Positions 37,555 to 59,512 of a stretch of DNA of 64,000 bases are shown piece after piece. Position 1 is the first letter of the stretch; the number at the start of each line of letters is the position of its first letter. This DNA comes from an uncultured Candidatus Saccharibacteria bacterium (GTDB lineage: Bacteria; Patescibacteriota; WWE3; UBA101185; UBA10185): contig CAYLMU010000003.1 of the NCBI GenBank assembly GCA_964385105.1, positions 2,470 to 66,469 on the forward strand. Direction: 5' to 3'. The notes below the pieces were generated by a model. The model was not told where the DNA came from. It saw nothing but the letters and a program-made list of their open reading frames with translations, and searched no databases. Position numbers and translations under genes: made by a program.

Positions 37555-38211
37555 CTAATAATGAACAAGTTCGGATTTTACCACTAACCTTTTGTTGTAA
37601 CCTTCCCCGGGTATCCAAACACCACCGCATGTAATTAACGTAAGCTCCGACTTATCATAAACTTTATCAAATATTTTTAATCTTTCAGGATCAAGAATAT
37701 CGATATAAAACAGATTAGTGATTTTGTAGGTATATACTTTACCTAAACTATCAACTAAAAAAACTCTATCATTTATTTGTGCATTTTTCAACTCATACAA
37801 TGCTGCAGGAGCACCAAAATTATTATCATAATGCGCGTTTACAATTATGTTTCCGACCTCACCGGGTTTAGCACTTTTGTAGTACCAACCCCCTACATTC
37901 CAATCGTCAGGAGCTTCTAATGCCCCATCTTCCTCAACACCAACTTCTATAATGTCAAAATCTACATTTACGCTGTTCATAAACAAACGTGTAGGGTTTG
38001 CATACAAAGGCTTCAAACTATCTTTAAAAACGGATGGCTTTGGAGTCTGTATCTCTTCTTGTGGCTTAAATCTGTTCGTAATAGAAATTATGTTTTTCAA
38101 GCTTATTTTATTTAATAAATCAGGATTAAACGAAAAAGCCAAAACAACAATTGTAGCACCAACCAGTGAGCTGTATATTAAAAGCTTTTTATTTAGATCC
38201 GTTGTGAACAT
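37555..38211 (-). CDS. Sortase-family transpeptidase (second copy).
   Basis: N-terminal TM. LTLITCGG (TLxTC) motif. Adjacent to the LPKTG-protein gene. Confidence 0.7.
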   Translation of the reverse strand: MFTTDLNKKLLIYSSLVGATIVVLAFSFNPDLLNKISLKNIISITNRFKPQEEIQTPKPSVFKDSLKPLYANPTRLFMNSVNVDFDIIEVGVEEDGALEAPDDWNVGGWYYKSAKPGEVGNIIVNAHYDNNFGAPAALYELKNAQINDRVFLVDSLGKVYTYKITNLFYIDILDPERLKIFDKVYDKSELTLITCGGVWIPGEGYNKRLVVKSELVHY

Positions 38212-38361
38212 TTTTTATTATTAACATTTAGTTTTTTCCAGCAGGGGTTTGTTACTGCAAAGTTAGATTTCAAATAGAATGGTCGCGTAAGCGTGCGGCA
38301 AACCCAACCATTCTACTCAAAACCCAACCTTCTTGACTTGTAAATGAATTTTGGGGGTGTA

Positions 38362-38382
38362 GGGGCCGGAATATCCGGCCCC
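38362..38382. other. GC-rich perfect hairpin ggggccgga-ata-tccggcccc immediately 3' of the LPKTG-protein gene. Possible terminator/RNA-stability element without a U-tract.
   Basis: 9-bp G/C stem read directly. No adjacent T-run on either strand. Confidence 0.3.
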
Positions 38383-38406
38383 TAACCTAGCGTCTATATA
38401 TTAGTA

Positions 38407-39033
38407 TTAAGCTAATATGTTCTTTTTGACTAATGTTCCTGTCGAAATCAACGCTAGACCTGCAACTAATAATGCTAAACTTGACCCGGCACCAGTTTTT
38501 GGTAACTCGGATATTTCAGCATCACCATAACAAACAGTTGCGGTATCACTTCCCTCAAAGTTGCCGTCGTATTCAAGTTCTACCTTGTTTACCACGCACT
38601 TTTCAAATTCTTTTTCATTGTCAAACTCATCTTTGTCAACTTTAGCTCTTATAAAGAACTCAACAGTTTCACCGGGTTCAAAGTTATCCCATTCCTCGGT
38701 TAAACCATCGCTACCTGAGTCAACGTATTCAAGTTCATCAGGTAAAAAGTCTTCGTATTTCATGTTGTCAACTTCTACTTCACCTACGTTTTCTACTTTG
38801 ATTCTAAAGTAGAATGTGTCATTCCATTCGTCAGTATCAAGAACTATTTTGTCCTTATAGTTACCGTCTTTGTCTTTACTTACCTCTTTAGTGATTCGGA
38901 AAGATTTATTACAGATCTCTCCACCACCATAAGTTTGTTTACATTTATTATCTGCAAATACCTGTTTGCTGCTTGTAATCGATACCAAAATTAATGACAC
39001 TAATATTAGACTTTTACTTATATATTTATACAT
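38407..39033 (-). CDS. Secreted cell-wall-anchored protein with a C-terminal LPXTG sorting signal (LPKTG + hydrophobic stretch + basic tail).
   Basis: N-terminal signal peptide. Acidic beta-rich body. C-terminus ISELPKTGAGSSLALLVAGLALISTGTLVKKNILA. Confidence 0.7.
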   Translation of the reverse strand: MYKYISKSLILVSLILVSITSSKQVFADNKCKQTYGGGEICNKSFRITKEVSKDKDGNYKDKIVLDTDEWNDTFYFRIKVENVGEVEVDNMKYEDFLPDELEYVDSGSDGLTEEWDNFEPGETVEFFIRAKVDKDEFDNEKEFEKCVVNKVELEYDGNFEGSDTATVCYGDAEISELPKTGAGSSLALLVAGLALISTGTLVKKNILA

Positions 39034-39197: not shown

Positions 39198-40391
39198 ATG
39201 CAACCTGAATTACCTTTAAAAGTGCTTTTAGTATTACCTTTCTTCTATCCACACCGAGGAGGAAGTCAAAAGTACGCTGAAGAAATTTATGTTCATCTAA
39301 TAAATAATCACCCAGATTGCCACATAGATGTACTCGCATACAATACAGACCACGTAGAACACTTCGAGGAATATAGAGGGTTAAAAATCTATAGGATTCC
39401 CTGTTGGAACATAATTCCTGCGCGATTTGTATTACCTAATCCCCTAGCATTGTATCGTATACTCAAACAGCTCTCTTATAACAAATACGATTTTGTCAAC
39501 ACCCATATTAGATTTTTTGACCCTACGTGGTGGGTATGGTTTTACGCAAAAAAAATAGGCGCAAAAAGCTTTTACACTGGACATGTCGCATCCTATCCCA
39601 TACACCAAAATAAGCTAGTAGAAGTAATAGCTAAGTTAGTAGACATTACTATAGGTAAATATTCAGTTAATAAATATGAGCTTATAACTTTTACAAACAA
39701 AACTGCTCAAAACTTTTTTGTTAATGTGCTCGGTTTGAAAAAAAACTCCTATATTGTATATGGCGGGGTAGATACGAAGTTTTTTGCTCCCACAAATAAA
39801 CAAAATAGAGTACTTCCCAAAATAAACCTAAAGATAGATAATGAAGCTATACTAATAACATATCTTGGACGTTTGATTTGGACAAAAGGTGTTACATATT
39901 TATACGAGGCAATTACCTTAATGCTTAAAGAAACCGATCAAAAGATGATTTTTGTACTCGCAGGTCCCGGTGAATTAGAAATGAAACTAAGGAACCAAGT
40001 AAAACAAGATGGATTAGAGGAACAAGTACTCATTTTAGGAGATATGTCATATACCCAAGTGCGCGATCTACTAGCCATTTCTGATATATTTGTAAATCCA
40101 TCTCACCATAACGAAGGATTTCCAAACACGATACTAGAAGCAGGCTCTTCAGGATGTTATGTCATCGCTACAGACAACGCAGGAACTTGGGAAGTAATCC
40201 GAGATAAAGAAACGGGTCAACTTGTACCTCAAAAGAATGTCCAGTCCTTGTATGACGCTATATCGTGGGCACTAAATAATAAAGAAAAAAGAAATAAAAT
40301 AGCTAATAATTTCAGAAATGAACTTGTTCAATCTTTTGATTGGAACGTGATTGCAGAACAACTCTACAAATTACTCATCAAAATACGATAG
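39198..40391 (+). CDS. Glycosyltransferase family 4.
   Basis: ...NPSHHNEGFPNTILEAGSSGCYVIATDNAG... GT4 signature. Confidence 0.75.
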   Translation: MQPELPLKVLLVLPFFYPHRGGSQKYAEEIYVHLINNHPDCHIDVLAYNTDHVEHFEEYRGLKIYRIPCWNIIPARFVLPNPLALYRILKQLSYNKYDFVNTHIRFFDPTWWVWFYAKKIGAKSFYTGHVASYPIHQNKLVEVIAKLVDITIGKYSVNKYELITFTNKTAQNFFVNVLGLKKNSYIVYGGVDTKFFAPTNKQNRVLPKINLKIDNEAILITYLGRLIWTKGVTYLYEAITLMLKETDQKMIFVLAGPGELEMKLRNQVKQDGLEEQVLILGDMSYTQVRDLLAISDIFVNPSHHNEGFPNTILEAGSSGCYVIATDNAGTWEVIRDKETGQLVPQKNVQSLYDAISWALNNKEKRNKIANNFRNELVQSFDWNVIAEQLYKLLIKIR

Positions 40392-40395
40392 TAAA

Positions 40396-41175
40396 TTAAA
40401 TTGCAAATTTAACTTTGTGACCTTCAAATACAGGCTTTTCCCAGTCACTTCTTATGAAAGCATATACATACCCACCAAGAACACTATCCTCAGTAAATCT
40501 TCTTTTTAGTATATATATAAAGTGGTTAAATCCAGTTTTCCAAATTTGTTGCTTACTTGGCTCATGTTCCCTTTCAAAGTGATTAATGTGATACTCACTA
40601 AAACACACTTCTTTATTAGTTATAGCTGACACTTTTATTTCAGGGGATAAATTCCAATCACCCATTCTTAAATTTATTTTAGGTAACGCTTCACGTTTAA
40701 TACCCCACATGCCTGTTAAAGCATCTTTAATAGGATACCCATATAAAATAGCAATCTCCATATTAAGTATATAAATACCCAATCTTCTTGTTTTGGATAT
40801 GGCTTTTGGGTTCAATAATGGCAAACGATTACACGAAACAACATCAAAATCGTTGTCTTCCATATATTTAACTATATATTTTATTTCATTAGATGGGTAT
40901 GTATCATCAGCATCCATAGCAAATATATAGTCACCTGTTGAGGTAGCTATACCTGACAAATGTGCATATCCATACCCAATACCATTAAGTTTTCTATTCT
41001 CCTTTACAACAATAGCACCAGCTTCTCTGGCAACTTTTGCAGAATTATCGGTAGAGCCGTTATCAACAACGATTATTTCATCTACATAAGTAGGCACATT
41101 TTTAATTGTATTTGAAATGATTTTTTCCTCGTTTTTACAAGGAATAATAAGTGATATCTTTTTATCGTGTATCAT
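40396..41175 (-). CDS. Glycosyltransferase family 2 (Dpm1/polyprenyl-phosphate hexosyltransferase-like).
   Basis: ISLIIPCKNEEKII...DEIIVVDNGSTDNS...DADDT GT2 motifs (DxD). Confidence 0.75.
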   Translation of the reverse strand: MIHDKKISLIIPCKNEEKIISNTIKNVPTYVDEIIVVDNGSTDNSAKVAREAGAIVVKENRKLNGIGYGYAHLSGIATSTGDYIFAMDADDTYPSNEIKYIVKYMEDNDFDVVSCNRLPLLNPKAISKTRRLGIYILNMEIAILYGYPIKDALTGMWGIKREALPKINLRMGDWNLSPEIKVSAITNKEVCFSEYHINHFEREHEPSKQQIWKTGFNHFIYILKRRFTEDSVLGGYVYAFIRSDWEKPVFEGHKVKFAI

Positions 41176-41305
41176 AGGATAAAATATATCATGCTATAGG
41201 TTAATTGTCAATATGAGGTTATGGTGTTATATAAGGATATAAAAGGAAAGCAAGAGAGTTACGGGGTTTAACCCTCTTGCTTAAGTGCTTTAGAAAAGAA
41301 CTAGT

Positions 41306-42919
41306 TTATTTCACCCCGATTACGGTAAGTTCGGCATAACTGCCATTCCACTCACCAGTGTCGAAATTCCAAATGTCCAGAGTATAACTCCATTCTTTTG
41401 GAATCAGCGAATAATCATAGCCACGAATACTATAAACAGCATCATAGCCGTACTTGGCGCCCATCTCAACAATATTTACATCTACGCTATTGGCACCAAC
41501 TGTCAGGAATTCGCCTACAAAAGCCTCACCGGGTTCGAGATATGCAACTTCAACTTCAAATGCTTCTGCGCCTGCGGCAACAGTGTGAACTCCTTCTTGC
41601 GGCTCGGCATAGTAATTGAAGTCGATATTTGCCACAAAATCAGTTCCGTGCCCATTCAACATCACCTCTTGGGGGGAACAAATTCCAATCCCGCCGTCTA
41701 CTGTACTGCCAGGAATACTATACCCATACAAGGGTACAATAAAAGGCAGACTCGGATAGTTGAAGTTATCCCAACACTCATCACGTGGAGTAACAAATAT
41801 GGGAAGGTTCACCGAGAAGCTTTCTTCGACGGGTGGTGGCTCTGGGGTTTCTGTTGGACCCGGTGTAGGTGTTGGCTCTGGTTCAACTGTCTGAGTCGCA
41901 AGGTAGTTTTGTCCTAAACCACTTGTGTCCCAAGCTACACCTTCAACAAGGTTACCAGTAGTGAAATCGTGCATGTGGGTATAACCACTACTTAGATAAC
42001 CAAAACCGGTAGCTTGAATGTAGTTCCATCCATCATAGGCAAATGTGAGTACATTCACCGGAAATTCCTCCGCCGTTAAACTCATACCAGCATAAGCAGT
42101 CATTTGCTCTCCGGCAGAAAGTTGGCTACGATGTGCAGTGTACTCAACAGTACCCGCTACTACGTTTACGGTTCCTTCCGGGACTTCAGCAATGTAGTTG
42201 TAACGTTCCTGCTCAGAATATTGAGTCTCAATGCCATTGACAAAGGGTGCCACAGACGAGCATATGCCCATCATATTTCCTTCATCTTCTAGCATAAGTA
42301 CACTGCCATCGAAACGAGCTGTTTCAAGACAAGTATCATCCGCGGGATTTATGTCTATGACATAAGAGAAAAGCAAGGGCCTTTCCCATTCAGCCCAAGG
42401 ATAATTTTCCATGGAAACCCATGCGCGCTCACTCCACTTCCAACCATGCGTGTAACCTTCACTATCAAACCCATATCCAGCAACAGCTACGTTCACACGC
42501 AACATCGTTGCAGTTTCCTGAGTTACATAGTGAGCAAGGTTAATAGGATCTGTACCTGGTGCGAACCGTAATGGGCCATCGACAAATTCTTCCCCGGTGA
42601 CCAAACGATATGTGTCAACTGAATAGCTAACATTTCCTGCTTGAATCACATGGGGATTTTGCCAATTTGCTACCTCTTGTTGGAAATTGTACAAATCCAG
42701 ATCGCCCGCATAACCTGCGGGCTCGCCGTCGACTTCCACCGGTTCCGAAGAACAAATATTAGCCACGACGGGATAAAACTCATCTTTCAAGGTTAGCGCG
42801 CCATCAAAGGGCACATTTGCATTGCAAATAGCCTCCGGGACATCGGGTGATGCCACAACAGCACTACCCACTACCAAAAGTAGCAATACCAGTATAAAAC
42901 CAGCAATTCGCGATTTCAT
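41306..42919 (-). CDS. Secreted hypothetical protein (537 aa) with signal peptide and Pro/Thr/Glu-rich linker. GC content clearly above genome background.
   Basis: N-terminal AGFILVLLLLVVGSAVVASP. Linker EPEPTPTPGPTETPEPPPVEE. GC-rich codon usage relative to neighbours. Confidence 0.6.
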   Translation of the reverse strand: MKSRIAGFILVLLLLVVGSAVVASPDVPEAICNANVPFDGALTLKDEFYPVVANICSSEPVEVDGEPAGYAGDLDLYNFQQEVANWQNPHVIQAGNVSYSVDTYRLVTGEEFVDGPLRFAPGTDPINLAHYVTQETATMLRVNVAVAGYGFDSEGYTHGWKWSERAWVSMENYPWAEWERPLLFSYVIDINPADDTCLETARFDGSVLMLEDEGNMMGICSSVAPFVNGIETQYSEQERYNYIAEVPEGTVNVVAGTVEYTAHRSQLSAGEQMTAYAGMSLTAEEFPVNVLTFAYDGWNYIQATGFGYLSSGYTHMHDFTTGNLVEGVAWDTSGLGQNYLATQTVEPEPTPTPGPTETPEPPPVEESFSVNLPIFVTPRDECWDNFNYPSLPFIVPLYGYSIPGSTVDGGIGICSPQEVMLNGHGTDFVANIDFNYYAEPQEGVHTVAAGAEAFEVEVAYLEPGEAFVGEFLTVGANSVDVNIVEMGAKYGYDAVYSIRGYDYSLIPKEWSYTLDIWNFDTGEWNGSYAELTVIGVK

Positions 42920-43008
42920 CGAATCTCCTCTACTAGTTCTTTTTGTTTTTAAAGTTCTTTATCTAAAGCTTTGATATTATATCATACCTATAGGTTATTT
43001 TCACCTTA

Positions 43009-43869
43009 GTGATTACTTTATTTGTTAAAAATCAGGCTATAATAATAAGCATGGCACAGTATAAAGTAAATGGCGTTTTACTATTTGTTTTACTTATAGG
43101 TCTTTTGGGTATTTCTTTACATGGAAGACCCATCCCTAGAGATAAGGAAATGTACAAAAAAATCGGTAGATTTGAGGTCAGACCCTATAAATACGGGTTA
43201 TACCTAACCCAGCCAGCATCAAATGTTTTTTATAATATTTCCCCTTACGATTTTTATTATCTGGAACCTCAAGGGCAAGAGCATAGACTACTTGAAAGAG
43301 GTTCTACTGAAGTATTTAGCAATGAATACTGGCTCACACAAAGTTCAAGTTCTTTCCCAGCAAAGCTTAGTAGTGTCTTGAGTTACTTTAACTATCAAAA
43401 TCCTAAAAGTACGTTCTTGATTCCAAACGAAAAAACAGTGTTACTTTCTGAAAAAATAAATAATAGCTTGTTTGTCACACTTTCTCAATATTCAATTGAT
43501 ATACCCACGAATAATGTAACAATGACCTTGAGCTTTAACTCAAATGACTTCATTTTTGATGATTCGGGAAACTTATATAATAACCCCCTACCTGAAGATG
43601 TCAGTGATTTTGTTAAAGTTACTCAATTCCCACTAAAATACTATCAATTTGAAAGTCCTAAACGTTATATTGTAGGTCAACAATACTTATTTATAGCTAA
43701 CAGAAGCGTACCAGGAGTAATAAGAATAAACTTACATGACCCTCAATACGATGTTGTTTATGTAAATTTGGAAAAACAACTAATAGAATTCGACATAAAA
43801 AACCTGGAAAATGCTAAAGTAAAAGTTGAACTATATGATTCTCTAGAAAGGGCAAGGAATGACCGATGA
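43009..43869 (+). CDS. Hypothetical exported/membrane-anchored protein (286 aa), AT-rich. GTG start at 43009, or ATG at 43051.
   Basis: Hydrophobic N-terminal segment VLLFVLLIGLLGISL. Stop overlaps the downstream gene start (ATGA), indicating an operon. Confidence 0.5.
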   Translation: MITLFVKNQAIIISMAQYKVNGVLLFVLLIGLLGISLHGRPIPRDKEMYKKIGRFEVRPYKYGLYLTQPASNVFYNISPYDFYYLEPQGQEHRLLERGSTEVFSNEYWLTQSSSSFPAKLSSVLSYFNYQNPKSTFLIPNEKTVLLSEKINNSLFVTLSQYSIDIPTNNVTMTLSFNSNDFIFDDSGNLYNNPLPEDVSDFVKVTQFPLKYYQFESPKRYIVGQQYLFIANRSVPGVIRINLHDPQYDVVYVNLEKQLIEFDIKNLENAKVKVELYDSLERARNDR

Positions 43870-45809
43870 TTATTAATTCCTTCATCTCAGCATTATCATT
43901 TTATATAATTCCAGTTTTTATTGGTTATGCGATTGTTAGATTAAAAAATGTGCCTTTTAAAGATGAACTATCATCCGAGAAAACGTTAACCGTAAAAATC
44001 CTTGATCAATTTAGGTATTTTACATATGGCTCATTAGGAATTTATGTAATTTTTTGTGCTGCATTGTTGGGCAAAAATAATGGTTTGGGTATAGAGTTTA
44101 CTCATGCAACAATATTCATCACACTCTTATTTTTGATATATATACCTTTGTTAATAGTAGGTCTTATACCCTATTTCAAAAACATTAAGAATTTGAACAT
44201 CTTTGACATCCTCGACATTTTATTTTTAATCATGATTGCATTATTAACATATGCAATATGGAGATGGGATAGCGGCATTAATACCACCCTAAATTGGGAC
44301 ATATATCACCATCAAACACTTGCAACGCTAATCCAAGGTAACAATTTTGACATTGTTACTTCTAATTTATCCGATTCATTTCAATTCGATGGCTACTCTA
44401 CCCTGTTTCACACACAAGTCGCTATAACCCAAAAAATATTCAATCCTGATTTATTGGCATACTGGTGGTTTATTGAACTCTTTCATCTATTTACTACAGT
44501 AGCCGTCTCCTTTGCCCTGGCATTTGCTGTTACAAAAAAAAGATGGGTTTCATATATAGGAGCTATTATAGGTGCATTAATCTTTGAATCAGCTGTATCA
44601 TACACTTCGCTATTTCTCATACCTCAAAATCTCGCTGCGACCGTTACAGTGGGCTACATAGCATCAATAATCAATAGATATGCCCAATCACGGGATACTT
44701 CAAAGATTCTAACAATTGACTTTGTAGTTTATATTTTTTATATAATGCTCAGCCATATAGTAATTGGAACATTAGGTGTATTTTTAGTGGCATTTTCAAA
44801 AGTATATTTGTTGCTTAAAAGTATAAACAAAGGGAAATCCATTCAAGGAGTATTATTTGTCTTGTCATTTATATTGTTGATAATAGTACCTTTGATTGCT
44901 CAACAGTTTGACTTGAACAATATAAACCGTGGGGAAGCTGAATTCTTTAATTACACACTTGAAGAAAAGTACAATTTAATGAAACAATTTTATGGTTTCA
45001 GTCTTGTATTTCTACCACTTGGTTATATATATGCGATTAGGCAAAAAAATCATTCTTATAATCTGCTTTTAATCATTACAAACGGTTTACTAGCATTAAT
45101 TATTGCGCACATCCCTTACTCTCTTAAATTCTTTACACTAGGGAGATTCACAGTTCATACTGTTATGGCATTAGGGGTATGGCTAATAATCCAACACTTT
45201 AATAAATATATAAAATTTTTAAGTTTAAAACTAATTTATTTAACATTCAGTGCGATTTTTGTAATTAATATTTCGGATTACAAGCAAGTACCTGCCTACA
45301 AAGAAATTTCTACACACGTAACACAAAATGAGATAGACGCAGCTAATTTTTTGAAATCTAATTACACCGGACACAATATACTTTTAGTATCAGATCCAGC
45401 TACTATGCATATTCTAGAGGGGTTAAGCGGTATAAACTCTCCCGGTGGTTCATATACAAGCCTTCACACCCGAGAAGTGCTTTCAGATGTCTACTTTATA
45501 CGCGACGAACAAATCACCCAAAAGTTGTTTCAAATAAGAGATGGTGTCGTAGATACTGAACCTGACAAGATTTTATTTGTTATAAGCGGTAGATTCAGCA
45601 AATGGCAACTAGGCGGTAACGTTGACAAGTTTGGTATACATTGGAACATATGGTCCCCTTTTGACTTGTCATCAAAGGATTTAGAAGACCACGATTTTAT
45701 TTATTATTTGAGAGAAAACTTAAGATATAATGAAGTGTTTAGAAATGAGGGCTTGATTATATTTGAAATAGAAAAACCTCCTATTACTACAGTTGTACAG
45801 AGTCAATAA
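43866..45809 (+). CDS. Polytopic membrane protein (~13 TM) with a C-terminal extracytoplasmic domain. Putative GT-C-type (polyprenyl-phosphate-sugar-dependent) glycosyltransferase.
   Basis: Topology plus an acidic DE pair in the first predicted extracytoplasmic loop (KNVPFKDELSS), as in GT-C enzymes. Genomic neighbourhood with GT2 and GT4 genes. The family call is an inference. Confidence 0.4.
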   Translation: MIINSFISALSFYIIPVFIGYAIVRLKNVPFKDELSSEKTLTVKILDQFRYFTYGSLGIYVIFCAALLGKNNGLGIEFTHATIFITLLFLIYIPLLIVGLIPYFKNIKNLNIFDILDILFLIMIALLTYAIWRWDSGINTTLNWDIYHHQTLATLIQGNNFDIVTSNLSDSFQFDGYSTLFHTQVAITQKIFNPDLLAYWWFIELFHLFTTVAVSFALAFAVTKKRWVSYIGAIIGALIFESAVSYTSLFLIPQNLAATVTVGYIASIINRYAQSRDTSKILTIDFVVYIFYIMLSHIVIGTLGVFLVAFSKVYLLLKSINKGKSIQGVLFVLSFILLIIVPLIAQQFDLNNINRGEAEFFNYTLEEKYNLMKQFYGFSLVFLPLGYIYAIRQKNHSYNLLLIITNGLLALIIAHIPYSLKFFTLGRFTVHTVMALGVWLIIQHFNKYIKFLSLKLIYLTFSAIFVINISDYKQVPAYKEISTHVTQNEIDAANFLKSNYTGHNILLVSDPATMHILEGLSGINSPGGSYTSLHTREVLSDVYFIRDEQITQKLFQIRDGVVDTEPDKILFVISGRFSKWQLGGNVDKFGIHWNIWSPFDLSSKDLEDHDFIYYLRENLRYNEVFRNEGLIIFEIEKPPITTVVQSQ

Positions 45810-45920
45810 ATTAACTTAACAGTTTTTTTGCAAAAAAATAGCCGACTATATGATGAAAACTTCCCCAAAGGGTCGCAATCTTTCAAATAGTCGGCTAAAA
45901 GGCCTATACGGCAATCGGGC

Positions 45921-46811
45921 TTACTGAGAAGGCAAAGGCCAGTTGTCGACCGAAGTCCACTTCTCGCCTTGCCAAAACTGCACTTGGCCATTGTCAACCA
46001 CAATGCGAACATCGTAGTGACCATCCCAGTCGGCAGGGAATGCGAGTTGATACACGCCACCGCCTTCGAGGATTTGACATTCGCCATTTACACAAACAGT
46101 GCCGTTAAAGCCCTGCGCAAACCAACCGAGTCCCAAAGGACTATTGCCGGCGTTTGCCACAGTGTATGGATCGGGGTTAACCTCATTGCTGGCAGCAAGA
46201 TCGCGCCAAAGGTCAAACTCCAAAATCCCTGATCCACTCACGGTCATCTGTGTCGGGTGCGGCCACTGAATCTTCAAATCATCACCATCACTGGTCTGCC
46301 AATTGCAGAAAACAGCAGTCCAGGGCAAGTTCTTCAGATTCGTCGCCTGCCATACCCGTCCGCAATCATCGACTTCATAGTCATCGGAAGGTAGGGTGAC
46401 ATCTGTCGCCCACTCTCCGAATCCCTCACCACCAGGCGTGTAGGTGAATACCTCAGTCGCCATGATGCTGTTGAAATCGGTCAAGAGGATCGGGCCAGTA
46501 CCTCCGCTGGTGGCAGTGGTTGTTACTGGTTCTGTAACTGCTGGTTCTGGTGTTTCAGCAGGCCGAGTCAGAAAAATTGTTTCGCCTTCCTCAGTAACGA
46601 TTTCAGTAACGACACGTGTCACTTCAACCACTGGCTGCTCACCTCCCCCAGTCAAGTTGTTGAACAGTTGTGCCAAATTTTGGCCACCAGCCTCAAGACC
46701 GGAAGTGCTTGCTCCAGAAACAAAACCAACGGTAAGTGGCCAACAAACAAAAGCGATAAACAACATAAGAATTACAAAACCGATCAACTTTCCTACGGTT
46801 ACTCGTGTCAT
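45921..46811 (-). CDS. N-terminally membrane-anchored hypothetical protein (296 aa) with TPEP-type linker. GC-rich.
   Basis: TM VTVGKLIGFVILMLFIAFVCWPL. Linker TRPAETPEPAVTEPVTTTATSGG. Trp/Gly/Asp-rich C-terminal domain. Elevated GC. Confidence 0.55.
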   Translation of the reverse strand: MTRVTVGKLIGFVILMLFIAFVCWPLTVGFVSGASTSGLEAGGQNLAQLFNNLTGGGEQPVVEVTRVVTEIVTEEGETIFLTRPAETPEPAVTEPVTTTATSGGTGPILLTDFNSIMATEVFTYTPGGEGFGEWATDVTLPSDDYEVDDCGRVWQATNLKNLPWTAVFCNWQTSDGDDLKIQWPHPTQMTVSGSGILEFDLWRDLAASNEVNPDPYTVANAGNSPLGLGWFAQGFNGTVCVNGECQILEGGGVYQLAFPADWDGHYDVRIVVDNGQVQFWQGEKWTSVDNWPLPSQ

Positions 46812-46858
46812 GTCATATCCTCCAATATTGAGCTACTGTTTAAATGGTTTCTGTTTAA

Positions 46859-47299
46859 CTAACGAAGAAACTGAAAGGTCAAAACGTACTTGATTCCTTC
46901 CCACACTCCGTCTTTGCTACCGTTGCTGGAATTAGTTGGAGGATTTTTACCTGCTAAATCTGCATTTTTGACACGCGGATTAGCTTTGAACTCCTTACCG
47001 AACTCATTCTCAACATCTGTAGTAACATCAACGTTTTTTTGACCTAGGAAATTTTCAAGCTCGTCCGAAATTACATCCGAAACGCCATCAAATCTCTCCA
47101 AGTCACCCACCTTGGATTCGCCCCAAGAAGGGAGCGTAAGGGAACTGATCAATGCCTTGCATAAGTCCTCAATCGTTACCCAACCCTTATTCAGACATAC
47201 ATCTTTCGCTGCACGCGAAAGTTCCAAGTCTGGAATGGATTGGATTGATGTTGTAAGTCCATAACGCACACCAACTACTAATTTGCCTGTTACTGCCAT
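46859..47299 (-). CDS. Hypothetical protein (~147 aa). Likely start MAVTGKL at 47299 (SD GGAGG 8 nt upstream); the ORF track extends to 47359.
   Basis: GC-rich. RBS read from the reverse complement of 47297-47316. Confidence 0.5.
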   Translation of the reverse strand: MAVTGKLVVGVRYGLTTSIQSIPDLELSRAAKDVCLNKGWVTIEDLCKALISSLTLPSWGESKVGDLERFDGVSDVISDELENFLGQKNVDVTTDVENEFGKEFKANPRVKNADLAGKNPPTNSSNGSKDGVWEGIKYVLTFQFLR

Positions 47300-47533
47300 G
47301 GTTTTTACCTCCATTTTTTTTGCCGTATATTTTTTTGTCAAATTCATCAATATGCCCAAAAATCAGGCAAATTGCTGATACATAAACTCGCTAAAAGTTC
47401 ATTTATCAACAATCTGACTATAAATCTCTATTTGGGCAATAATAGAAACACACGGTTAATGTGAGAATTCTATACTACAATAACTGATTTGTCAACACTA
47501 TAGGGTTTAATATATTAGCCACACCTTCCAAAA

Positions 47534-47572: not shown

Positions 47573-48097
47573 AGGATGCTACCCCAACTCCTTACCGTTA
47601 ATATCCGTGGGTTTACATCTCCTCTCATGTATTTAAATACCTTCTCAATGACTTCCGTGTCTATCCAAATAGACTCTATTATGCTCTTTCACATCATGTC
47701 CAACTGTTAACACAAAGATGAAGCAACTTTTCTACCTCTTCATCAAAAAAAAGGACTGACATATTGATAATCCTCAGAAGAATTATGGGTACGTTTAACT
47801 AAAACCGGCATCTCACACACTCCTTATACACTCACCAGTAAATTTTTAAGCAGCATAAAACCACATAAACCTTTTCATTGCACACATTAACTATTCTTCT
47901 TACACACCTCTAACACAACTCAAAAACTTCTTTAAAACACCATCATTTGTCATAGCCGTCTGCTAAAGTGGCTCAAATTTCAATGTACATCGCTTGTTTA
48001 GCAAAAATATTTTGATAAAGTGATAATATTCCTGCTTCTCCTGTCCAGAAGCATGATCTTATAACTTAGTCATGTTTTTTATTTGACTAATGTTCCG

Positions 48098-48151
48098 TAA
48101 AAAACGCTCTGTGGTTGTCGCACTGAGTCGCTCCTTATGGAGCGTTTTTTA
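48098..48151. terminator. Bidirectional Rho-independent terminator after the yacL-like gene.
   Basis: aaaaaacgctc...(loop)...gagcgtttttt: A-run, 7-bp stem, T-run. Confidence 0.55.
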
Positions 48152-48260
48152 TAAATCGCAATTAACGTTAATTTATAGAAAGCCTTCACAAATTAGCCCA
48201 AAATAGTTTTATCCCAAGCATCGCTCAAAAAGTATCTTGTCTCTTGCTCCTAAAACCTGC

Positions 48261-55425: not shown

Positions 55426-55932
55426 CAGCATACGAAGCTGTACTCTAAAAACTGAACAAAACTTTGATTAAGCCCAATTACTAAAAGTCTTAATTTAAAG
55501 ATGCGCACACATTAGTACTGCTTAGCTAAACACATTACTGTGCGTACACTTGCAGCCTATCAACCTGGTAATCTCCCAGGAGGTACGTCCGATAAATCGG
55601 AAGAATTCTAATCTTGGGATGGGCTTCGTGCTTAGATGCTTTCAGCACTTATCCCGACCGAACGTAGCTACCCAGCGATGCCACTGGCGTGACAACTGGA
55701 ACACTAGAGGTTCGTCCGCTCCGGTCCTCTCGTACTAGGAACAGCCTCCCTCAGAATTCATACGCTCGTTGTGGAAAGAGACCGAACTGTCTTACGACGT
55801 TCTGAACCCATCTAACGCGCCTCTTTAATGGGCGAACAGCCCAACCCTTGGAACCTGCTTCAGCTCCAGGATGAGACGAGACGACATCGAGGTGCCAAAC
55901 ACCGCCGCCGCTATGAACGCTCGAGCGGTATT

Positions 55933-55965
<33 letters not shown>

Positions 55966-56456
55966 AAGTTCCGAGCTTACCATAAAGCATTCGGAAGATC
56001 ATTAAGACCTACTTTCGTAACTGCGCGACTTGTGTGTCTTGCAGTAAAGCTCCCATATACCTTTACGCTTACAGCGCCATTTCCATCGGCGCTAAGGGAA
56101 CCTTTGTGCTCCTGCGTTACTTTTTAGCAGGAAACCGCCCCAGTTAAACTGCCCATCAAGCATTGTCCTCGTACCCGATAAGGGCACACAGTAAGACTCA
56201 TAATATTAGAAGAGAGGTGTTACATTGGCGACTAGCTCACCTAAGCGAGCTAATCTCCCTCCTACGCTATACAACTAATATCACTTGTCAATGCCAGACT
56301 ACAGTAAAGCTCCACGGGGTCTATTTGTCCAACAACGAGTAACCGGCATCTTCACCGGTAGTTCAATTTCACCGAGTCCGTGATTAAGAGAGTGCTCAAG
56401 TCGTTACGCCTTTCGTGCGGGCCGGAACTTACCCGGCAAGGGATTACGCTTGTTAA

Positions 56457-57184
56457 TTCTTCATCTATATTAAATAGACTTTGAGTAACCTTCCCAGTGT
56501 TACTCCTGCATGTCGCCATGCAGACGCCACTATATCTTCATGCACTAGCATGTTTGGCGTATAGTGTGTGAGGATTCAAGAAACTTTGGAGTAACCTTAC
56601 GATTCATAAGACTACATAATAATGCAATCTCATGTATACCGTTAAAATTAAGGTGTTTCCTTTGTTCAATCAATTCCATAATTTCGCAGAATAATTGAAA
56701 ATCATTTTGCTTACTTGTTCTTAATTTGTGTGCCCTAAAAAAAGGTACTATTTTTGAATTAAGATCTGTAATGGATCTCACACAATAGCGATAAAGGTCT
56801 TCGTTGTGATTATCAAACCTTCTGTTTAAATATACTTTTCCACATCCAAAAAAGTTTTGGAAAATGTAAAGAACATTTTTACTCTTTGCTGATTGTGTGA
56901 CTATGAACTCTGGAAATACCTGCCAACCGGTTTTGCTCGTGGAGTTTTTTAGTATGCTTACTGTAAAAGCACCCTCCCCATCTACAAACCCAATTATCCA
57001 ACCAATGGTTTCTTGTCTTTCCTGCTGATTGTCCGCACTTGCTGCATTTTCACTCAACACATCCGAATATTATCCGAACATGTTAAGTAGCACAAGATTC
57101 TTTATTCTACTTTTAATAGACACTACCTTTTTTAGGTAGACGGAGTTTCCAGCATATAGCCAAATTTTACTATGGCGGCGCGAT
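56457..57184 (-). mobile_element. Group I-type intron in 23S rRNA (insertion near the E. coli 1917-1923 region, helix 69-71 area) carrying a homing-endonuclease ORF. Boundaries approximate.
   Basis: 23S exon homology (…ACGGCAGCAGTAACTATAACTGTTCTA) stops at ~57190 and resumes at ~56456 (CGTAATCCCTTGCCGGGTAAGTTCC…). An intervening ~730 nt contains a LAGLIDADG ORF. Confidence 0.6.
56545..57060 (-). CDS. LAGLIDADG-family homing endonuclease (single-motif type) encoded within the 23S intron.
   Basis: IGWIIGFVDGEGAF matches the LAGLIDADG motif. 171 aa, typical for homodimeric I-CreI-like enzymes. Confidence 0.8.
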   Translation of the reverse strand: MLSENAASADNQQERQETIGWIIGFVDGEGAFTVSILKNSTSKTGWQVFPEFIVTQSAKSKNVLYIFQNFFGCGKVYLNRRFDNHNEDLYRYCVRSITDLNSKIVPFFRAHKLRTSKQNDFQLFCEIMELIEQRKHLNFNGIHEIALLCSLMNRKVTPKFLESSHTIRQTC

Positions 57185-58033
57185 TCACCATAGAACAGTT
57201 ATAGTTACTGCTGCCGTTCACCCGAGCTTCGACCAAAAGCTCATTCACAATTGCACAAGTGCAAAAGTAAGATCACCTCCAGCTTTAACTTACGGGCACT
57301 GGGCAGGCGTCGGCCCCTATACATCCCCTTACGGGTTTAGCAGAGACCTGTGTTTTTGATAAACAGTCGCTTGAACCATTTTTGTGCCCCCTACGTATCT
57401 CTACGCAGGGCATCCTTTTCCCTAAGTTACGGATGTAATTTGCCTAGTTCCTCGATCACGGTTCTCTCGTTCGCCTTGGTATTCTCTACCTGTCTACCTG
57501 TGTCGGATTGCGGTACGGATATCATAGGATCTCCCTAGAAGATTTTCTTGGAAGCTTAACGCAGCTAAATCAGCGGTATTACCCGCTTTTCCACCGGCTC
57601 GTATAAACGCCTGTGCGGATTTGCCTACACAGACTGACTTGCCTTCTGGACTGGAATCCTTAACCAGCCTAGCCTATCAAACTCCGTCCCTCCATTGGTA
57701 ATAATGATCAAATGATAGTGCAGGAATATTAACCTGCTGTCCATCGGTTACGCCCTTCGGCCTCACCTTAGGACCGACTTACCCTCCGTTGACTGACATA
57801 GCGGAGGAAACCTTAGACTTCCGGCGGGGTGGGTTTTCACCACCCTCTCGTTACTCATGCCCACATTCTCACTTGATGCCGCTCCAGCATACCTCACGAT
57901 ACACCTTCAGTGCAGACATCAATGCTCCCCTACCATCCATTAAAATCTAAAAGAAATTAATGAATCCACAGCTTCGGTTCTTTGCTTTAGCCCCGTTAAA
58001 TCATCGGCGCGAAACCGTTGAACTAGTGAGCTG

Positions 58034-58076
<43 letters not shown>

Positions 58077-58645
58077 AGCTGTCTAAACAGTTTCACTTCC
58101 TTACCCACTAAGCAAAGATTAGGGACCTTATCTGATGGTCCGGGTTGTTTCCCTCTCGTACCAGGAACTTGCTCCCTAGTACTGACTCCTAAGTTGAAGA
58201 TTTGCGCATTCGGAGTTTGGTAAGAATGGGTACGCTTGCGCGCCCCAATTCTTTTCAGTATCTCTACCTCACAAATCCATAATAACTTAGGGCTATACCT
58301 AAATATATTTCGGGGAGAGCCAGCTATCGCCGAGTTCGATAAGCGTTTCACCTCTTACCACAAGTCATCCCAGCATTTTTCCGCATACACGGGTTCGGTC
58401 CTCCGCCTGTCTTTCGACAGGTTTCAACCTGCTCATGGTAAGCTCACTCGGCTTCGGGTCTAATAACATATACTAAAGCGCCCTTTTAAGACTCGCTTTC
58501 GCTGCGTCTACACAACTGAGTTGCTTAAACTTGCATATGTTATTAACTCGCGGGCTCATTCTTCAATAGGCACAACATCACACCACAAGGGTGCTCTGTC
58601 AGCTTGTTTGCATACGGTTTCAGGTTCTATTTCACTCCCCTAACA

Positions 58646-58677
<32 letters not shown>

Positions 58678-58942
58678 TGTTCACTATCGGTGTCCTCATG
58701 TATTTAGCCTTAGCTGATGGTCCAGCTGTATTCACACAGGGTTTCACGTGCCCCATGCTACTCTGGATAAACCCAAGAAGGCATTTTTGTTTCGAATACA
58801 GGGCTATTACCTGCTATGGCGCAGCTTTCCAGCTGGCTTCTTCTACAAAAATACTTTTTTACTTCTTTGTCATTCAAGATGACGTAGGGCTTTCCTAACC
58901 CCCTAATCTTAAAACTTTGTTTCAAAATATTTGTGCAATTAA

Positions 58943-58987
58943 GAAAAACAATCTGCAGGCCTAAAAGGCCGAAGCCGTTTTTCGTAT
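58943..58987. repeat. 45-nt structured repeat, copy B, inside the 23S rRNA domain I (candidate intervening sequence/expansion).
   Basis: gaaaaacaatctgcaggcctaaaaggccgaagccgtttttcgtat. Lies after the GAGTAGCGGCGAGCGAAAAGG...AGCCCAAACC block, where E. coli has no corresponding sequence. Confidence 0.7.
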
Positions 58988-59512
58988 TGCAAAATTTTTA
59001 AGACTTGGGTTTGGGCTCATTCCTTTTCGCTCGCCGCTACTCAGGAAATACCTAATGGTATCTTTTCCTCCAGTTACTAAGTTGTTTCAGTTCACTGGGT
59101 ACCCATCTATGCACCTATGTTCGCCCGAAGGCAAATTTCAGCACATGATCACCTCATATTACTATGGATGGAGTTTCCTCATTCGGAGATTCCCGGTTAA
59201 TAGCGCTTCTTGTCAGCTCACCGAGACTTAACGCAGACTTGCACGTCCTTCATCGGCACAAGGACCCAAGGCATCCACCGTATGCATTAGTATCTTTAAT
59301 ATCAAGACGAATTGAACTTAAATCTAGTTTTGTTCAGTTTTCAAAGTACATGCTACGTTTTACATTTTCAAAAACTGTCCTCGGGCATAGCCCTGCGGAT
59401 TGTTTTTTCAAATTGTAAAACTTCGCCACAATTAAGTGACTTGTTGGCAATTCGTCGCTTTCGCTCCTATTGCACATCAATTCACTAAACTCACTTCATT
59501 CGTTAAGTGACT

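What the first reader, a model, noticed from the sequence alone, without database searches (positions are those of the whole stretch)
41306..47359. Two GC-rich exported-protein genes flank an AT-rich two-gene membrane module
Genes 41306-42919 (537 aa; signal peptide; EPEPTPTPGPTETPEPPP linker) and 45921-46811 plus 46859-47299 (TM anchor; TPEP linker) are clearly more GC-rich (~48-55%) than the genome. The enclosed 43009-45809 operon (286-aa exported protein + 647-aa 13-TM protein) is more AT-rich than average. This GC-rich / AT-rich / GC-rich mosaic suggests separate horizontal acquisitions or an island. The two GC-rich proteins share linker style and may be functionally related surface proteins.
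Basis: seen in the sequence. Interest (0 to 1): 0.55.

Follow-up and report, generated by a model that had tools for sequence, protein, structure and literature searches.

The report
Conserved surface-glycosylation locus with GC-rich client genes
The GC-rich/AT-rich/GC-rich mosaic is real, but it is not a recently acquired island: it is a gene cluster conserved across a clade of tiny uncultured (CPR/Patescibacteria) bacteria, in which native-composition glycosylation enzymes sit between fast-evolving surface-protein genes that are GC-rich, with a non-native codon usage, in every relative examined.

Summary
The three genes 41306-42919 (p537), 45921-46811 (p296) and 46859-47299 (p146) are compositional outliers (GC 0.46/0.51/0.43, coding background 0.36). 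About half the excess comes from amino-acid composition. The other half is a codon dialect: AGA/AGG make up 2 of 22 Arg codons, against about 70% elsewhere. The enclosed "AT-rich" operon is not anomalous.

Of 13 further loci fetched from other assemblies, 11 hold enough flank to judge. All 11 keep a p296 homolog beside the same partners. These are a GT4, a polyprenyl-phosphate-type GT2, a 230-290-aa anchored protein and a 520-710-aa membrane protein, even where gene order is rearranged. The GC excess recurs in all 10 loci measured by gene class (dGC +0.08 to +0.27).

Core genes share one phylogeny (Mantel r 0.81-0.96). p296 does not (r 0.15), which indicates allele replacement within a fixed slot.

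I read the locus as an envelope glycosylation machine plus its variable surface-protein cassettes. Why the cassettes stay GC-rich is unresolved.

The parts
39198..40391 (+). GT4 glycosyltransferase. Conserved core member of the cluster, with native composition (GC 0.351, GC3 0.291).
   Evidence: Pfam Glycos_transf_1 at 9e-38. It sits next to GT2 in every locus that holds both. Its pairwise distances follow the core phylogeny.
40396..41175 (-). GT2 glycosyltransferase of the polyprenyl-phosphate-sugar-synthase type (AglJ/Dpm1/ArnC-like). Native composition (GC 0.319).
   Evidence: Pfam Glycos_transf_2 at 3.5e-26. Its best NCBIfam matches are all below their cutoffs: AglJ 1.2e-26, dolichyl-phosphate hexose transferase 1.6e-19, PpgS and ArnC. 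PDB matches include ArnC and the DPMS structure 5mlz. It is 71-83% identical across most lineages.
41248..41282 (-). Intrinsic terminator of the p537 transcription unit (14-bp stem plus T-run).
   Evidence: the sequence is shown.
41306..42919 (-). p537: a secreted multi-domain protein with a signal peptide, three related Cys/Trp/Gly-rich domains and a Pro/Thr/Glu linker. It is a GC-rich, fast-evolving occupant of a variable slot.
   Evidence: GC 0.462, GC3 0.388, AGR 1 of 11 Arg codons. Only one relative was found among 5.8 billion proteins (P0002, 44% identity). Syntenic slot proteins of 421-555 aa in L001, L003, L007 and L010 share its C-terminal domain. It has no Pfam, NCBIfam, PHROG or PDB match.
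42976..43004 (-). Extended -10 promoter-like site for p537, in the 90-bp divergent region shared with e286.
   Evidence: GTGAAA-17-TG-TATAAT, 10 of 12; the sequence is shown.
43009..43869 (+). e286: an N-terminally anchored extracytoplasmic protein whose coding region overlaps m647 by 4 nt (translationally coupled). The start may be the ATG at 43051. Native composition.
   Evidence: ORF list. It is always immediately upstream of the GT-C gene. Its distances correlate with m647 at r = 0.96. The FYN(F/I)SPYD motif is conserved. It has no family match.
43866..45809 (+). m647: a polytopic GT-C-fold glycosyltransferase with an oligosaccharyltransferase-like C-terminal globular domain. Native composition.
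45839..45897 (-). Terminator hairpin of the p146-p296 unit (long stem followed by a U-run).
   Evidence: -32.3 kcal/mol, z -5.6 against shuffles. The sequence is shown.
45921..46811 (-). p296: a type-II anchored surface protein with an N-terminal TM helix, a Thr/Pro/Glu linker and a roughly 180-aa conserved beta-sandwich C-domain. It is the most GC-rich gene of the region.
46859..47299 (-). p146: a small soluble protein encoded directly upstream of p296 in the same unit. It is GC-rich and extremely divergent between relatives.
   Evidence: GC 0.433, GC3 0.401, AGR 1 of 5 Arg codons. It is 29% identical to the L001 counterpart, although the flanking genes are about 82% identical. The L008 counterpart has GC 0.66 and GC3 0.80. 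The listed ORF runs from TTG 47359; the ATG at 47299 follows a GGAGG box.
47467..47495 (-). Near-consensus sigma-70 promoter for the p146-p296 unit.
   Evidence: TTGACA-17-TAGAAT, 11 of 12.
37555..39033 (-). Conserved neighbours: a class-F-like sortase (37555-38211) and a DUF11/LPXTG cell-wall-anchored protein (38407-39033). Native composition.
   Evidence: Pfam and NCBIfam matches. Both are syntenic in L001, L003, L007, L010 and L020.

Best explanation
The region is a vertically conserved cell-envelope locus of a Patescibacteria (CPR) clade, not an island.

Invariant core. The core has native AT-rich composition and consists of four genes:
- a GT4 glycosyltransferase;
- a GT2 of the polyprenyl-phosphate-sugar-synthase type;
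- a translationally coupled pair, an anchored extracytoplasmic protein (e286) and a polytopic GT-C glycosyltransferase (m647) built like an oligosaccharyltransferase.

Inferred mechanism. The GT2 (with GT4) would load sugar onto a polyprenyl-phosphate carrier at the cytoplasmic face. The GT-C enzyme would then transfer it outside the membrane onto an envelope acceptor.

Variable slots. Two slots flanking this core hold independently transcribed, fast-evolving genes for exported or anchored proteins. One holds p537. The other holds the p146-p296 unit.

Inferred roles. These proteins would be the clients or partners of the machine: surface proteins glycosylated on their Thr/Pro-rich linkers, and/or glycan- or host-binding modules.

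Composition. The GC-richness has two parts. The first is an amino-acid bias (rich in Gly, Val, Pro, Thr and Trp; poor in Lys and Ile). The second is a non-native synonymous-codon dialect.

Inferred cause of the dialect. The slots are repeatedly refilled by lateral allele replacement between relatives, across the conserved flanks, from GC-richer sources. Amelioration afterwards is partial.

Shown versus inferred.
- Shown: the conservation of the cluster, the GT-C fold, the compositional decomposition, the phylogenetic incongruence of p296, and the fast divergence of the cassettes.
- Inferred: the donor and acceptor chemistry, the client relationship, and the cause of the persistent GC excess.
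For: Conservation.
- Eleven further loci with informative flanks keep p296 next to the e286-like and GT-C genes plus GT2 and GT4, in at least three different gene orders.

Machinery.
- The m647 model is confident (pTM 0.87).
- Acidic and aromatic loop motifs are invariant.
- The best family matches of the GT2 are polyprenyl-phosphate glycosyltransferases: AglJ, Dol-P hexose transferase, PpgS and ArnC.

Cassettes.
- p296 has a TM helix, a linker and a beta-sandwich domain.
- p537 has a signal peptide and a Pro-rich linker.
- Both units have their own strong promoter and terminator.

Composition.
- Both an amino-acid effect and a codon effect are present, together with a distinct dialect.
- The excess is present in all 10 loci measured by gene class: dGC +0.075 to +0.266 and dGC3 +0.026 to +0.426. 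It is also visible in L015 and L014 and in L020 and L021.

Turnover.
- Core genes co-vary (Mantel r 0.81-0.96, p 2e-4), but p296 does not (r 0.15, p 0.24).
- W against L001: RadA 82%, Rho 91% and GT-C 68% identical, but p296 29-30%, p146 29% and p537 44%.
- The sister pair L007/L010 has p296 similarity (80% in the C-domain) in line with its core genes. It also has the smallest dGC3 (+0.03 to +0.06). Lineages with discordant p296 similarity have a large dGC3. This is the pattern expected from replacement followed by amelioration.

Controls.
- A 2707-aa LamG-repeat surface protein and the LPXTG protein use the native dialect.
- So does ribosomal protein S1.
Against: - No GC-rich donor is visible. 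The p296 family has only 49 clusters at 50% identity. Every context with informative flanks is the same locus type, with a lower-GC background. The family has no phage or viral relatives.
- Synonymous (four-fold) sites are at chance-level identity between all sampled lineages for p296 and p537. No recent transfer between sampled genomes is therefore documented.
- The GC3 offset has outlasted synonymous saturation in the W/L001 p537 pair. That points to a persisting gene-specific force rather than a relic of transfer.
- The composition-normalised tetranucleotide signature of the GC-rich genes is not foreign.
- N-x-S/T sequons are not enriched in p296 or p537. m647 lacks the WWDYG motif of N-oligosaccharyltransferases. 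The acceptor is therefore unknown and could be a cell-wall polymer rather than these proteins.
- No flippase gene was identified in the cluster.
Confidence: 0.55

Rival explanations
1. A resident, gene-specific force keeps these genes GC-rich, and lateral replacement plays no essential part. These would be surface-protein genes that recombine often between strains. They would then be subject to GC-biased gene conversion, or to more effective selection for G/C-ending codons. Vertical but very rapid protein evolution would explain the low identities.
For: - The offset is present in every lineage examined, although four-fold sites are saturated between all of them.
- In the W/L001 pair the p537 orthologs are syntenic and colinear. 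Their GC3 (0.39 and 0.61) tracks the diverged backgrounds (0.27 and 0.45) and keeps the offset.
- The normalised tetranucleotide signature is native.
- GC-richness stops at the CDS boundaries, and the promoters and terminators are native.
- No donor pool is visible.
- Recombining bacterial genes are on average richer in GC3 (PMC4450053). The GC/selection link is strongest in low-GC species (PMC11879095).
Against: - As I recall them, the published recombination-associated GC3 differences are small, while here dGC3 reaches +0.43. I did not retrieve the published values.
- dGC3 is very uneven between lineages (+0.03 to +0.43). A constant force would give a more uniform offset.
- p296 distances are incongruent with the core phylogeny, and W against L001 shows a type switch (30% identity, against 68% for the neighbouring GT-C).
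- The cytoplasmic p146 shares the offset, so a selection argument based on secreted-protein composition does not cover it.
Confidence: 0.28
2. One reading: two (or three) recent, independent horizontal acquisitions, or a genomic island inserted around a native or separately acquired AT-rich operon.
For: - The GC and GC3 excess and the foreign-looking codon dialect.
- An unrelated GC-rich ORF elsewhere in the window (22531-22923) does look like a recent import. It has relatives in phages of GC-rich hosts and on plasmids.
Against: - Synteny and the mosaic itself are conserved in relatives whose core proteins are only 30-80% identical.
- There are no mobility genes, flanking repeats or tRNA junctions.
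- Regulatory signals are native.
- There are no homologs outside this locus type.
- The 'AT-rich' operon has exactly native codon usage.
Confidence: 0.07
3. Translational selection: the genes encode very abundant surface proteins and use the organism's optimal codons, which happen to be G/C- or T-ending (CGT, ATC, TTC).
For: - Both units have near-consensus promoters.
- The dialect avoids AGA, ATA and TTA and prefers CGT. In many bacteria that is the pattern of highly expressed genes (my own knowledge).
Against: - The only classical highly expressed gene in the window, ribosomal protein S1, uses the ordinary dialect (AGR 8 of 10, GC3 0.26).
- GC3 of 0.73-0.80 in L008, against a background of 0.31, is far beyond usual expression-linked bias.
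- L007 and L010 show almost no synonymous offset for the same genes.
- No ribosomal-protein or EF-Tu genes lie in the window, so the test rests on one gene.
Confidence: 0.07
4. An artefact: a chimeric metagenome assembly, non-coding GC-rich DNA misread as genes, or targeted hypermutation by a diversity-generating retroelement.
For: The source is evidently a metagenome-assembled contig (one 83,979-bp contig; sources NCBI and Logan).
Against: - The same mosaic occurs in independent assemblies from different samples and pipelines: Logan, JGI, ENA and NCBI.
- The proteins are conserved and fold confidently.
- No template/variable repeat pair lies in or near the genes, or elsewhere in the window. 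No reverse transcriptase appeared among the proteins scanned, although not every ORF in the window was scanned.
Confidence: 0.03

Closest known systems
Oligosaccharyltransferases of the STT3/PglB/AglB family (GT66) and their lipid-linked pathways, for example archaeal Agl with AglJ + AglB or Campylobacter Pgl
   Same: - The adjacent GT2 is most similar to AglJ and Dol-P hexose transferases.
- A GT4 is adjacent, as in the Pgl and Agl clusters.
   Different: - No Pfam STT3 match and no PDB sequence match.
- Where I infer from the sequence order that OSTs carry WWDYG, this family has an invariant (S/A)(D/E)PATMHILEGLSG motif. No structural superposition was examined.
- N-x-S/T sequons are not enriched in the neighbouring exported proteins.
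- A dedicated co-translated partner protein (e286) is present.
Three-component extracytoplasmic glycosylation systems: GtrA/GtrB/GtrX, CsbB/GtcA/YfhO, and actinobacterial Ppm1 + Pmt protein O-mannosylation (my own knowledge)
   Same: - A polyprenyl-phosphate GT2 is paired with a GT-C transferase.
- Pmt clients are secreted proteins with Thr/Pro-rich linkers like those of p296 and p537.
   Different: - No GtrA/GtcA-type flippase gene was recognised in the cluster.
- The GT2 has no obvious C-terminal TM helices.
- No PMT, PMT_2 or YfhO Pfam match.
- An extra GT4 and e286 are present.
Cassette-type surface-protein loci replaced by recombination across conserved flanks, for example the Clostridioides difficile S-layer cassette or capsule and O-antigen loci (my own knowledge)
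   Same: - Conserved flanks hold highly divergent alleles, or types, of surface-protein genes.
- The allele phylogeny is incongruent with the flanks.
- The locus is associated with glycosylation genes.
   Different: - The variable genes here are consistently richer in GC than the genome, whereas classical variable surface loci are usually AT-richer.
- The divergence is deep (synonymous sites saturated), so no recent switch is documented.
Recombination-associated GC enrichment in bacteria (Lassalle et al. 2015, PMC4450053; NAR 2024 study, PMC11879095)
   Same: GC3 is elevated in genes expected to recombine often, and the effect is strongest at synonymous sites.
   Different: The effect reaches +0.43 in GC3 and comes with a qualitative switch in Arg, Leu and Ile codon choice. 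It is confined to two or three genes.

Membership tests
Horizontally acquired genomic island | Presence/absence polymorphism: absent from the syntenic site in relatives | tested here: not met
   The genes, or slot equivalents, are present at the same position in all loci with informative flanks.
Horizontally acquired genomic island | Atypical composition and codon usage relative to the host genome | tested here: met
   However, the composition-normalised tetranucleotide signature is native.
Horizontally acquired genomic island | Mobility hallmarks: integrase or transposase, flanking direct repeats, tRNA junction | tested here: not met
   No such Pfam domains in the genes from 37.5 to 49.2 kb. 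No flanking repeats. The nearest tRNAs are at 33.7 kb and 59.5 kb.
GT-C superfamily glycosyltransferase (m647) | Polytopic GT-C fold with a conserved N-terminal TM module and extracytoplasmic loops | tested here: met
   [not shown]
GT-C superfamily glycosyltransferase (m647) | Conserved acidic residue(s) in the first large extracytoplasmic loop | tested here: inconclusive
   D145 (TLNWD) and D170 (LSD.FQF) are invariant in the loop spanning residues 133-180. Their position relative to a catalytic site was not checked by superposition.
STT3/PglB/AglB oligosaccharyltransferase (GT66) | Sequence membership (Pfam STT3 PF02516, or a significant PDB sequence match) | tested here: not met
   No Pfam hit for any of the 19 family members. 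No PDB profile hit.
STT3/PglB/AglB oligosaccharyltransferase (GT66) | WWDYG motif at the start of the C-terminal domain | tested here: not met
   DPATMHILEGLSG is invariant there instead.
STT3/PglB/AglB oligosaccharyltransferase (GT66) | OST-type C-terminal globular domain | tested here: met
   [not shown]
STT3/PglB/AglB oligosaccharyltransferase (GT66) | Transfer of glycan to Asn in N-x-S/T sequons of client proteins | not testable with these tools
   Indirect evidence only. Sequons are not enriched in p296 or p537. A conserved N-(F/I)-S in e286 occurs in 7 of 10 lineages.
Polyprenyl-phosphate glycosyltransferase (Dpm1/GtrB/ArnC/AglJ type GT2) | Score above the curated family cutoffs | tested here: not met
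   Best hit AglJ scores 93.8 bits against a cutoff of 325; all other hits are also below cutoff. Only the generic GT2 Pfam domain passes.
Polyprenyl-phosphate glycosyltransferase (Dpm1/GtrB/ArnC/AglJ type GT2) | Genomic pairing with a GT-C transferase | tested here: met
   Adjacent or near-adjacent in all loci that hold both genes.
Carbohydrate-binding module / lectin (p296 C-domain) | Significant sequence or fold match to a CBM family | tested here: inconclusive
   [not shown]
Diversity-generating retroelement target | Template repeat/variable repeat pair and a nearby reverse transcriptase | tested here: not met
   No repeat of the GC-rich genes anywhere in the window. The rest of the 84-kb contig was not available.

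The most novel reading that the evidence does not exclude
A CPR-specific protein (or envelope) glycosylation system built around a previously unclassified OST-like GT-C family, in which a DPATMH motif stands where I infer WWDYG would be, with a dedicated partner protein. Its client surface-protein genes would be held at a GC content 10-27 points above the genome, with a different codon dialect, by a persisting gene-specific process rather than by recent transfer. That process would be recombination-driven GC bias or selection on the mRNA. This would make the locus a natural experiment on what sets local GC content in reduced, AT-biased genomes.
Probability: 0.2. Interest if true: 0.72.

Novelty: new variant of a known kind. 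Interest (0 to 1): 0.5.

Why it matters
- Method. An atypical-composition block, the standard cue for an 'island', can be a clade-wide conserved feature. Composition alone would mis-annotate this locus in every genome of the clade.
- CPR biology. The locus links four protein families with no annotation (p537, e286, p296, p146), plus an unclassified GT-C enzyme, to a GT2/GT4 pair and a sortase/LPXTG pair. This gives a concrete, testable hypothesis for how these episymbiont-like bacteria build and vary their glycosylated surface. The fast-evolving p296 and p537 proteins are candidates for host-contact or phage-evasion determinants.
- Genome evolution. The GC3 offset persists although synonymous sites are saturated. 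It can be used to separate recurrent import, biased gene conversion and selection on GC in low-GC bacteria, which remains a debated question (PMC4450053 against PMC11879095).

Tried and rejected
- Profile libraries. Pfam, NCBIfam and PHROGs gave nothing for p537, e286, m647, p296 or p146. PDB sequence and profile searches gave nothing for m647, e286, p296 or the p537 alignment.
- A relationship between p537 and p296 was rejected. BLASTP finds only the linker.
- DGR or repeats. No direct or inverted repeats link the GC-rich genes to each other or to any other part of the window.
- Phage or mobile origin. p296 and p537 have no tblastn hit in 50,697 phage records. Neither the p296 family nor the m647 family has a relative in IMG/VR.
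- Translational selection. The S1 gene uses the native dialect. The two small genes at 54.3-55.0 kb that I hoped were ribosomal proteins are response-regulator receivers.
- Donor search. An exhaustive HMM search of 1.84 billion representatives found only 49 clusters, all with the same architecture. Scans of GTDB species representatives and of JGI metagenomes added few loci.
- Recent transfer. Four-fold-site identity is at chance level for every pair, so no recent exchange between sampled genomes can be shown.
- N-glycosylation sequon enrichment was not found.
- A literature search for a described system (Patescibacteria + oligosaccharyltransferase, WWE3/Katanobacteria, the LPLV motif) found nothing relevant.
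- The afdb50 fold library was unavailable.
- The source organism could not be named. Related MAGs are labelled 'Candidatus Saccharibacteria', 'candidate division WWE3' or 'Patescibacteria group'.

Full report
**1. The observation**

The window has 37.0% GC, and 500-bp windows have an sd of 4.9 points.
- p296 (45921-46811, minus strand) peaks at 53% (z +3.3).
- p537 (41306-42919, minus strand) runs at 45-48% (z about +2).
- p146 (46859-47299, minus strand) is at about 42-43%.

Per gene, GC/GC3 are 0.462/0.388, 0.508/0.488 and 0.433/0.401. Other genes have GC3 of 0.19-0.35. The only other GC-rich places are the 23S and 5S rRNA genes and an isolated 130-aa ORF at 22531-22923.

I split the excess into two parts.
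- An amino-acid part, using the window's own synonymous usage: +0.062, +0.079 and +0.025.
- A synonymous part: +0.041, +0.071 and +0.050. This is 2.9-4.9 sd of the other genes.

The synonymous part is a distinct dialect.
- AGA/AGG are 2 of 22 Arg codons, against about 70% elsewhere.
- TTA is 6 of 72 Leu codons, against about 40%.
- ATA is 5 of 40 Ile codons, against 41%.
- CGT supplies 55% of Arg, against 10%.

The proteins are rich in Gly, Val, Pro, Thr and Trp and poor in Lys and Ile.

The enclosed operon 43009-45809 (32.4% GC) is not an outlier. Its codon effect is about zero, and its AT-richness comes from membrane-protein amino-acid composition.

Raw tetranucleotide distance flags the two GC-rich blocks (z 2.4-2.8). 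The composition-normalised tetranucleotide signature is ordinary.

**2. The island idea fails on synteny**

p537 has one relative among 5.8 billion clustered proteins, and p296 has 18. I fetched the contigs that encode these relatives.

The order in the window is ClpC, RadA, PIN/TRAM, gap, p146-p296, GT-C + anchored protein on the opposite strand, the p537 slot, GT2, GT4, DUF11/LPXTG protein, sortase, Rho.
- This order recurs in L001, L003, L007 and L010. It recurs from p296 onward in L012.
- L008, L009, L015, L019 and L020 have a different gene order but keep p296, the anchored protein, the GT-C protein, GT2 and GT4 together.
- Sources.

The compositional mosaic is conserved as well. In the ten loci measured by gene class, the variable genes exceed the core genes by +0.075 to +0.266 in GC and by +0.026 to +0.426 in GC3.
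- The extreme is L008. Its p146-like gene has GC 0.66 and GC3 0.80, and its p296-like gene 0.62 and 0.73, against a core GC3 of 0.31.
- The offset is still present, though smaller, in L020, where the core genes are near 50% GC.

These assemblies come from different samples and pipelines, so a chimeric assembly is excluded. I found no integrase, no flanking repeats and no adjacent tRNA. No phage or viral relatives were found either.

Both GC-rich units have native AT-rich signals.
- p146-p296 has a TTGACA-17-TAGAAT promoter (47495-47467) and a strong terminator hairpin (45897-45839; -32 kcal/mol, z -5.6).
- p537 has an extended -10 promoter (43004-42976) and a 14-bp terminator (41282-41248).
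- Sources.

**3. What the genes are**

*m647 (43866-45809).*
- It has 22 relatives, none with a Pfam domain. One is named 'RgtA/B/C/D-like' and comes from candidate division WWE3.
- With a 19-sequence alignment AlphaFold2 gives pLDDT 82.7 and pTM 0.87.
- Invariant motifs are TLNWD(I/L)YHHQ and LSD(S/T)FQF.GY in a large outer loop, FE(S/A)..AYTSLFLIPQN, NRGEA, and (S/A)(D/E)PATMHILEGLSG(V/I)N(T/S)PGG.
- By sequence order the last motif sits where oligosaccharyltransferases have WWDYG. This is my inference, and I did not examine a superposition.
- m647 is therefore built like an OST but is not a sequence member of that family.

*GT2 (40396-41175).* Its best matches, all below their cutoffs, are AglJ, dolichyl-phosphate hexose transferase, PpgS, ArnC and DPMS. 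These are all polyprenyl-phosphate glycosyltransferases.

*GT4 (39198-40391).* It is generic.

*e286 (43009-43869).* It is anchored by an N-terminal helix. Its stop overlaps the m647 start, and its divergence tracks m647 almost perfectly (r 0.96).

*p296.*
- It has a TM helix (residues 7-22), a disordered Thr/Pro/Glu linker and a confident beta-sandwich C-domain with pLDDT 80-97.
- An exhaustive HMM search found only 49 clusters at 50% identity, all with the same architecture.

*p537.* It has a signal peptide, repeated Cys/Trp/Gly-rich domains and a Pro-rich linker followed by an (I/F)(F/I)(L/I)P.V.K motif. It shares its C-terminal domain with the slot proteins of L001, L003, L007 and L010.

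*p146.* It is a small soluble protein. In L003-type loci it is missing, and p296 instead carries an N-terminal SAP-like cytoplasmic extension.

**4. How the cassettes evolve**

Between the window and its closest relative L001, flanking and core proteins are 66-91% identical (RadA 82, PIN/TRAM 82, Rho 91, GT2 83, GT4 66, m647 68). In contrast p537 is 44%, p296 29-30% and p146 29% identical.

Across ten loci, pairwise distances of GT2, GT4, e286 and m647 are tightly correlated (Mantel r 0.81-0.96, p 2e-4). The p296 C-domain is uncorrelated with them (r 0.15, p 0.24).
- W is 63-68% identical in p296 to lineages whose m647 is only 30-46% identical.
- W is only 30% identical in p296 to L001.

At least one allele (type) replacement inside fixed flanks is therefore required.

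The sister pair L007/L010 has p296 similarity (80%) in line with its core genes. It also has the smallest synonymous offset (dGC3 +0.03 to +0.06) and intermediate AGR use. Lineages with discordant similarity have large offsets. This is the pattern expected from replacement followed by amelioration.

Two facts argue against a simple import story.
- No GC-rich donor is visible.
- Four-fold sites are at chance-level identity for p296 and p537 in every pair. The offset has therefore outlived synonymous saturation. The W and L001 p537 genes keep their offset while tracking backgrounds that differ by 0.17 in GC3.

A resident force is therefore a serious rival. It could be recombination-associated GC bias (PMC4450053) or selection for G/C, which is reported to be strongest in low-GC species (PMC11879095). 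Both processes may act together.

Translational selection is poorly supported.
- Ribosomal protein S1, a 2707-aa LamG-repeat surface protein and the LPXTG protein all use the native dialect.
- S1 is, however, the only classical highly expressed gene available in the window.

**5. Most likely mechanism (inferred)**

GT2, together with GT4, builds a polyprenyl-phosphate-linked sugar or glycan. m647, with e286 as its partner, transfers it outside the membrane.

The adjacent, independently transcribed p537 and p146-p296 units would encode the glycosylated and/or glycan-binding surface proteins that use or accompany this machine. They are the rapidly varying, exchangeable part of the locus.

The client relationship rests only on conserved neighbourhood and on the Thr/Pro-rich linkers.
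- N-x-S/T sequons are not enriched.
- The acceptor could equally be a wall polymer.

**6. Comparison and novelty**

The machinery works like an OST or Pmt-type lipid-linked glycosylation system, but it fails the sequence and motif tests for GT66. The variable-slot behaviour resembles cassette-type surface loci, for example the C. difficile S-layer cassette (my own knowledge). It has the unusual sign of being GC-richer than the genome.

I found no description of this cluster or of these families in the searchable literature.

I rate it a new variant of known kinds: an unclassified GT-C system plus a cassette locus. It carries one unexplained feature, the clade-wide GC and codon-dialect offset of the cassette genes.

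**7. Verdict**

- The island interpretation is rejected in its stated form, but it is partly right that lateral processes act on these genes.
- Interest is moderate (0.5). The finding corrects a tempting mis-annotation, proposes a function for five unannotated families, and offers a tractable case for the debate on local GC content.
- The mechanism and the cause of the GC offset remain inferred.

Noticed in passing
window 22531-22923 (-): An isolated 130-aa ORF has GC 0.57 and GC3 0.71, with the same non-native codon dialect (AGR 1 of 11 Arg codons, no TTA or ATA). It sits in an otherwise AT-rich, gene-poor stretch. It has tblastn relatives in Gordonia phage VanLee (39% identity, 1e-11), in Brevundimonas jumbo phages and on C. 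botulinum and Rhizobium plasmids. Unlike the finding, it looks like a true recent import. It has no Pfam match.
   Followed up: partly
window 55492-59300 (-), ORF 56545-57060 (-): The 23S rRNA gene spans 3809 nt against a 2925-nt model. It contains an ORF with a LAGLIDADG_1 homing-endonuclease domain (6.5e-24), so it appears to be an intron-bearing rRNA. A LAGLIDADG gene also lies upstream of S1 in the related locus L007.
   Followed up: partly
window 47913-48163 (-), within the 0.9-kb gap between PIN/TRAM and p146: A non-coding block here is conserved across relatives. It consists of a terminator-like element (AAAAAACGCTCC..GGAGCG..GAGCGTTTTTT) followed by a 36-nt block containing the hairpin GCTTCTGGACAGGAGAAGC. 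The block is 97% identical between the window, L001 and L010, although neighbouring proteins are only 40-80% identical. It has no Rfam match (best E 0.44). It could be a small RNA, a leader or a protein-binding site.
   Followed up: partly
window 43009-43869 (+), e286 residues about 72-80: The motif FYN(F/I)SPYD, which contains an N-x-S sequon, is conserved in e286 homologs of 7 of 10 lineages. It could be a self-glycosylation site of the partner of the OST-like enzyme, or simply a structural motif.
   Followed up: no
window 41306-42919 (-), p537 residues about 369-378; L001, L003, L007 and L010 slot proteins; L018 3957-5648: A short hydrophobic motif, (I/F)(F/I)(L/I)P(L/A)V(L)K or 'YLPLVARG', directly follows the Pro-rich linker or the signal peptide in all p537-slot proteins. 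It may be a sorting or processing signal. A literature search found nothing.
   Followed up: partly
window 202-8325 (+): This 2707-aa protein has eight LamG/ConA-like lectin domains (Laminin_G_3, 3.9e-158) and is a typical CPR giant surface protein. It has native codon usage (GC3 0.287, AGR 47 of 68 Arg codons). I used it as a control showing that surface exposure alone does not produce the GC-rich dialect.
   Followed up: partly
L003 10001-11047, L012 about 7090-8124; proteins P0004, P0006, P0021, P0053: In some lineages p296 carries an N-terminal cytoplasmic extension with two SAP-like helix-hairpin repeats (weak Pfam PF02037), and the separate p146 gene is absent. This suggests that p146 and the extension play an equivalent cytoplasmic role.
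   Followed up: no
L008 5601-6014 and 11203-11535; L009 3264-6848; L018 3957-5648; L020 2131-2727: Other small exported or anchored proteins near the module in related loci are also GC-rich relative to their background, several with Pro/Thr-rich linkers. The GC-rich dialect may mark a wider class of surface-protein genes in this clade.
   Followed up: no
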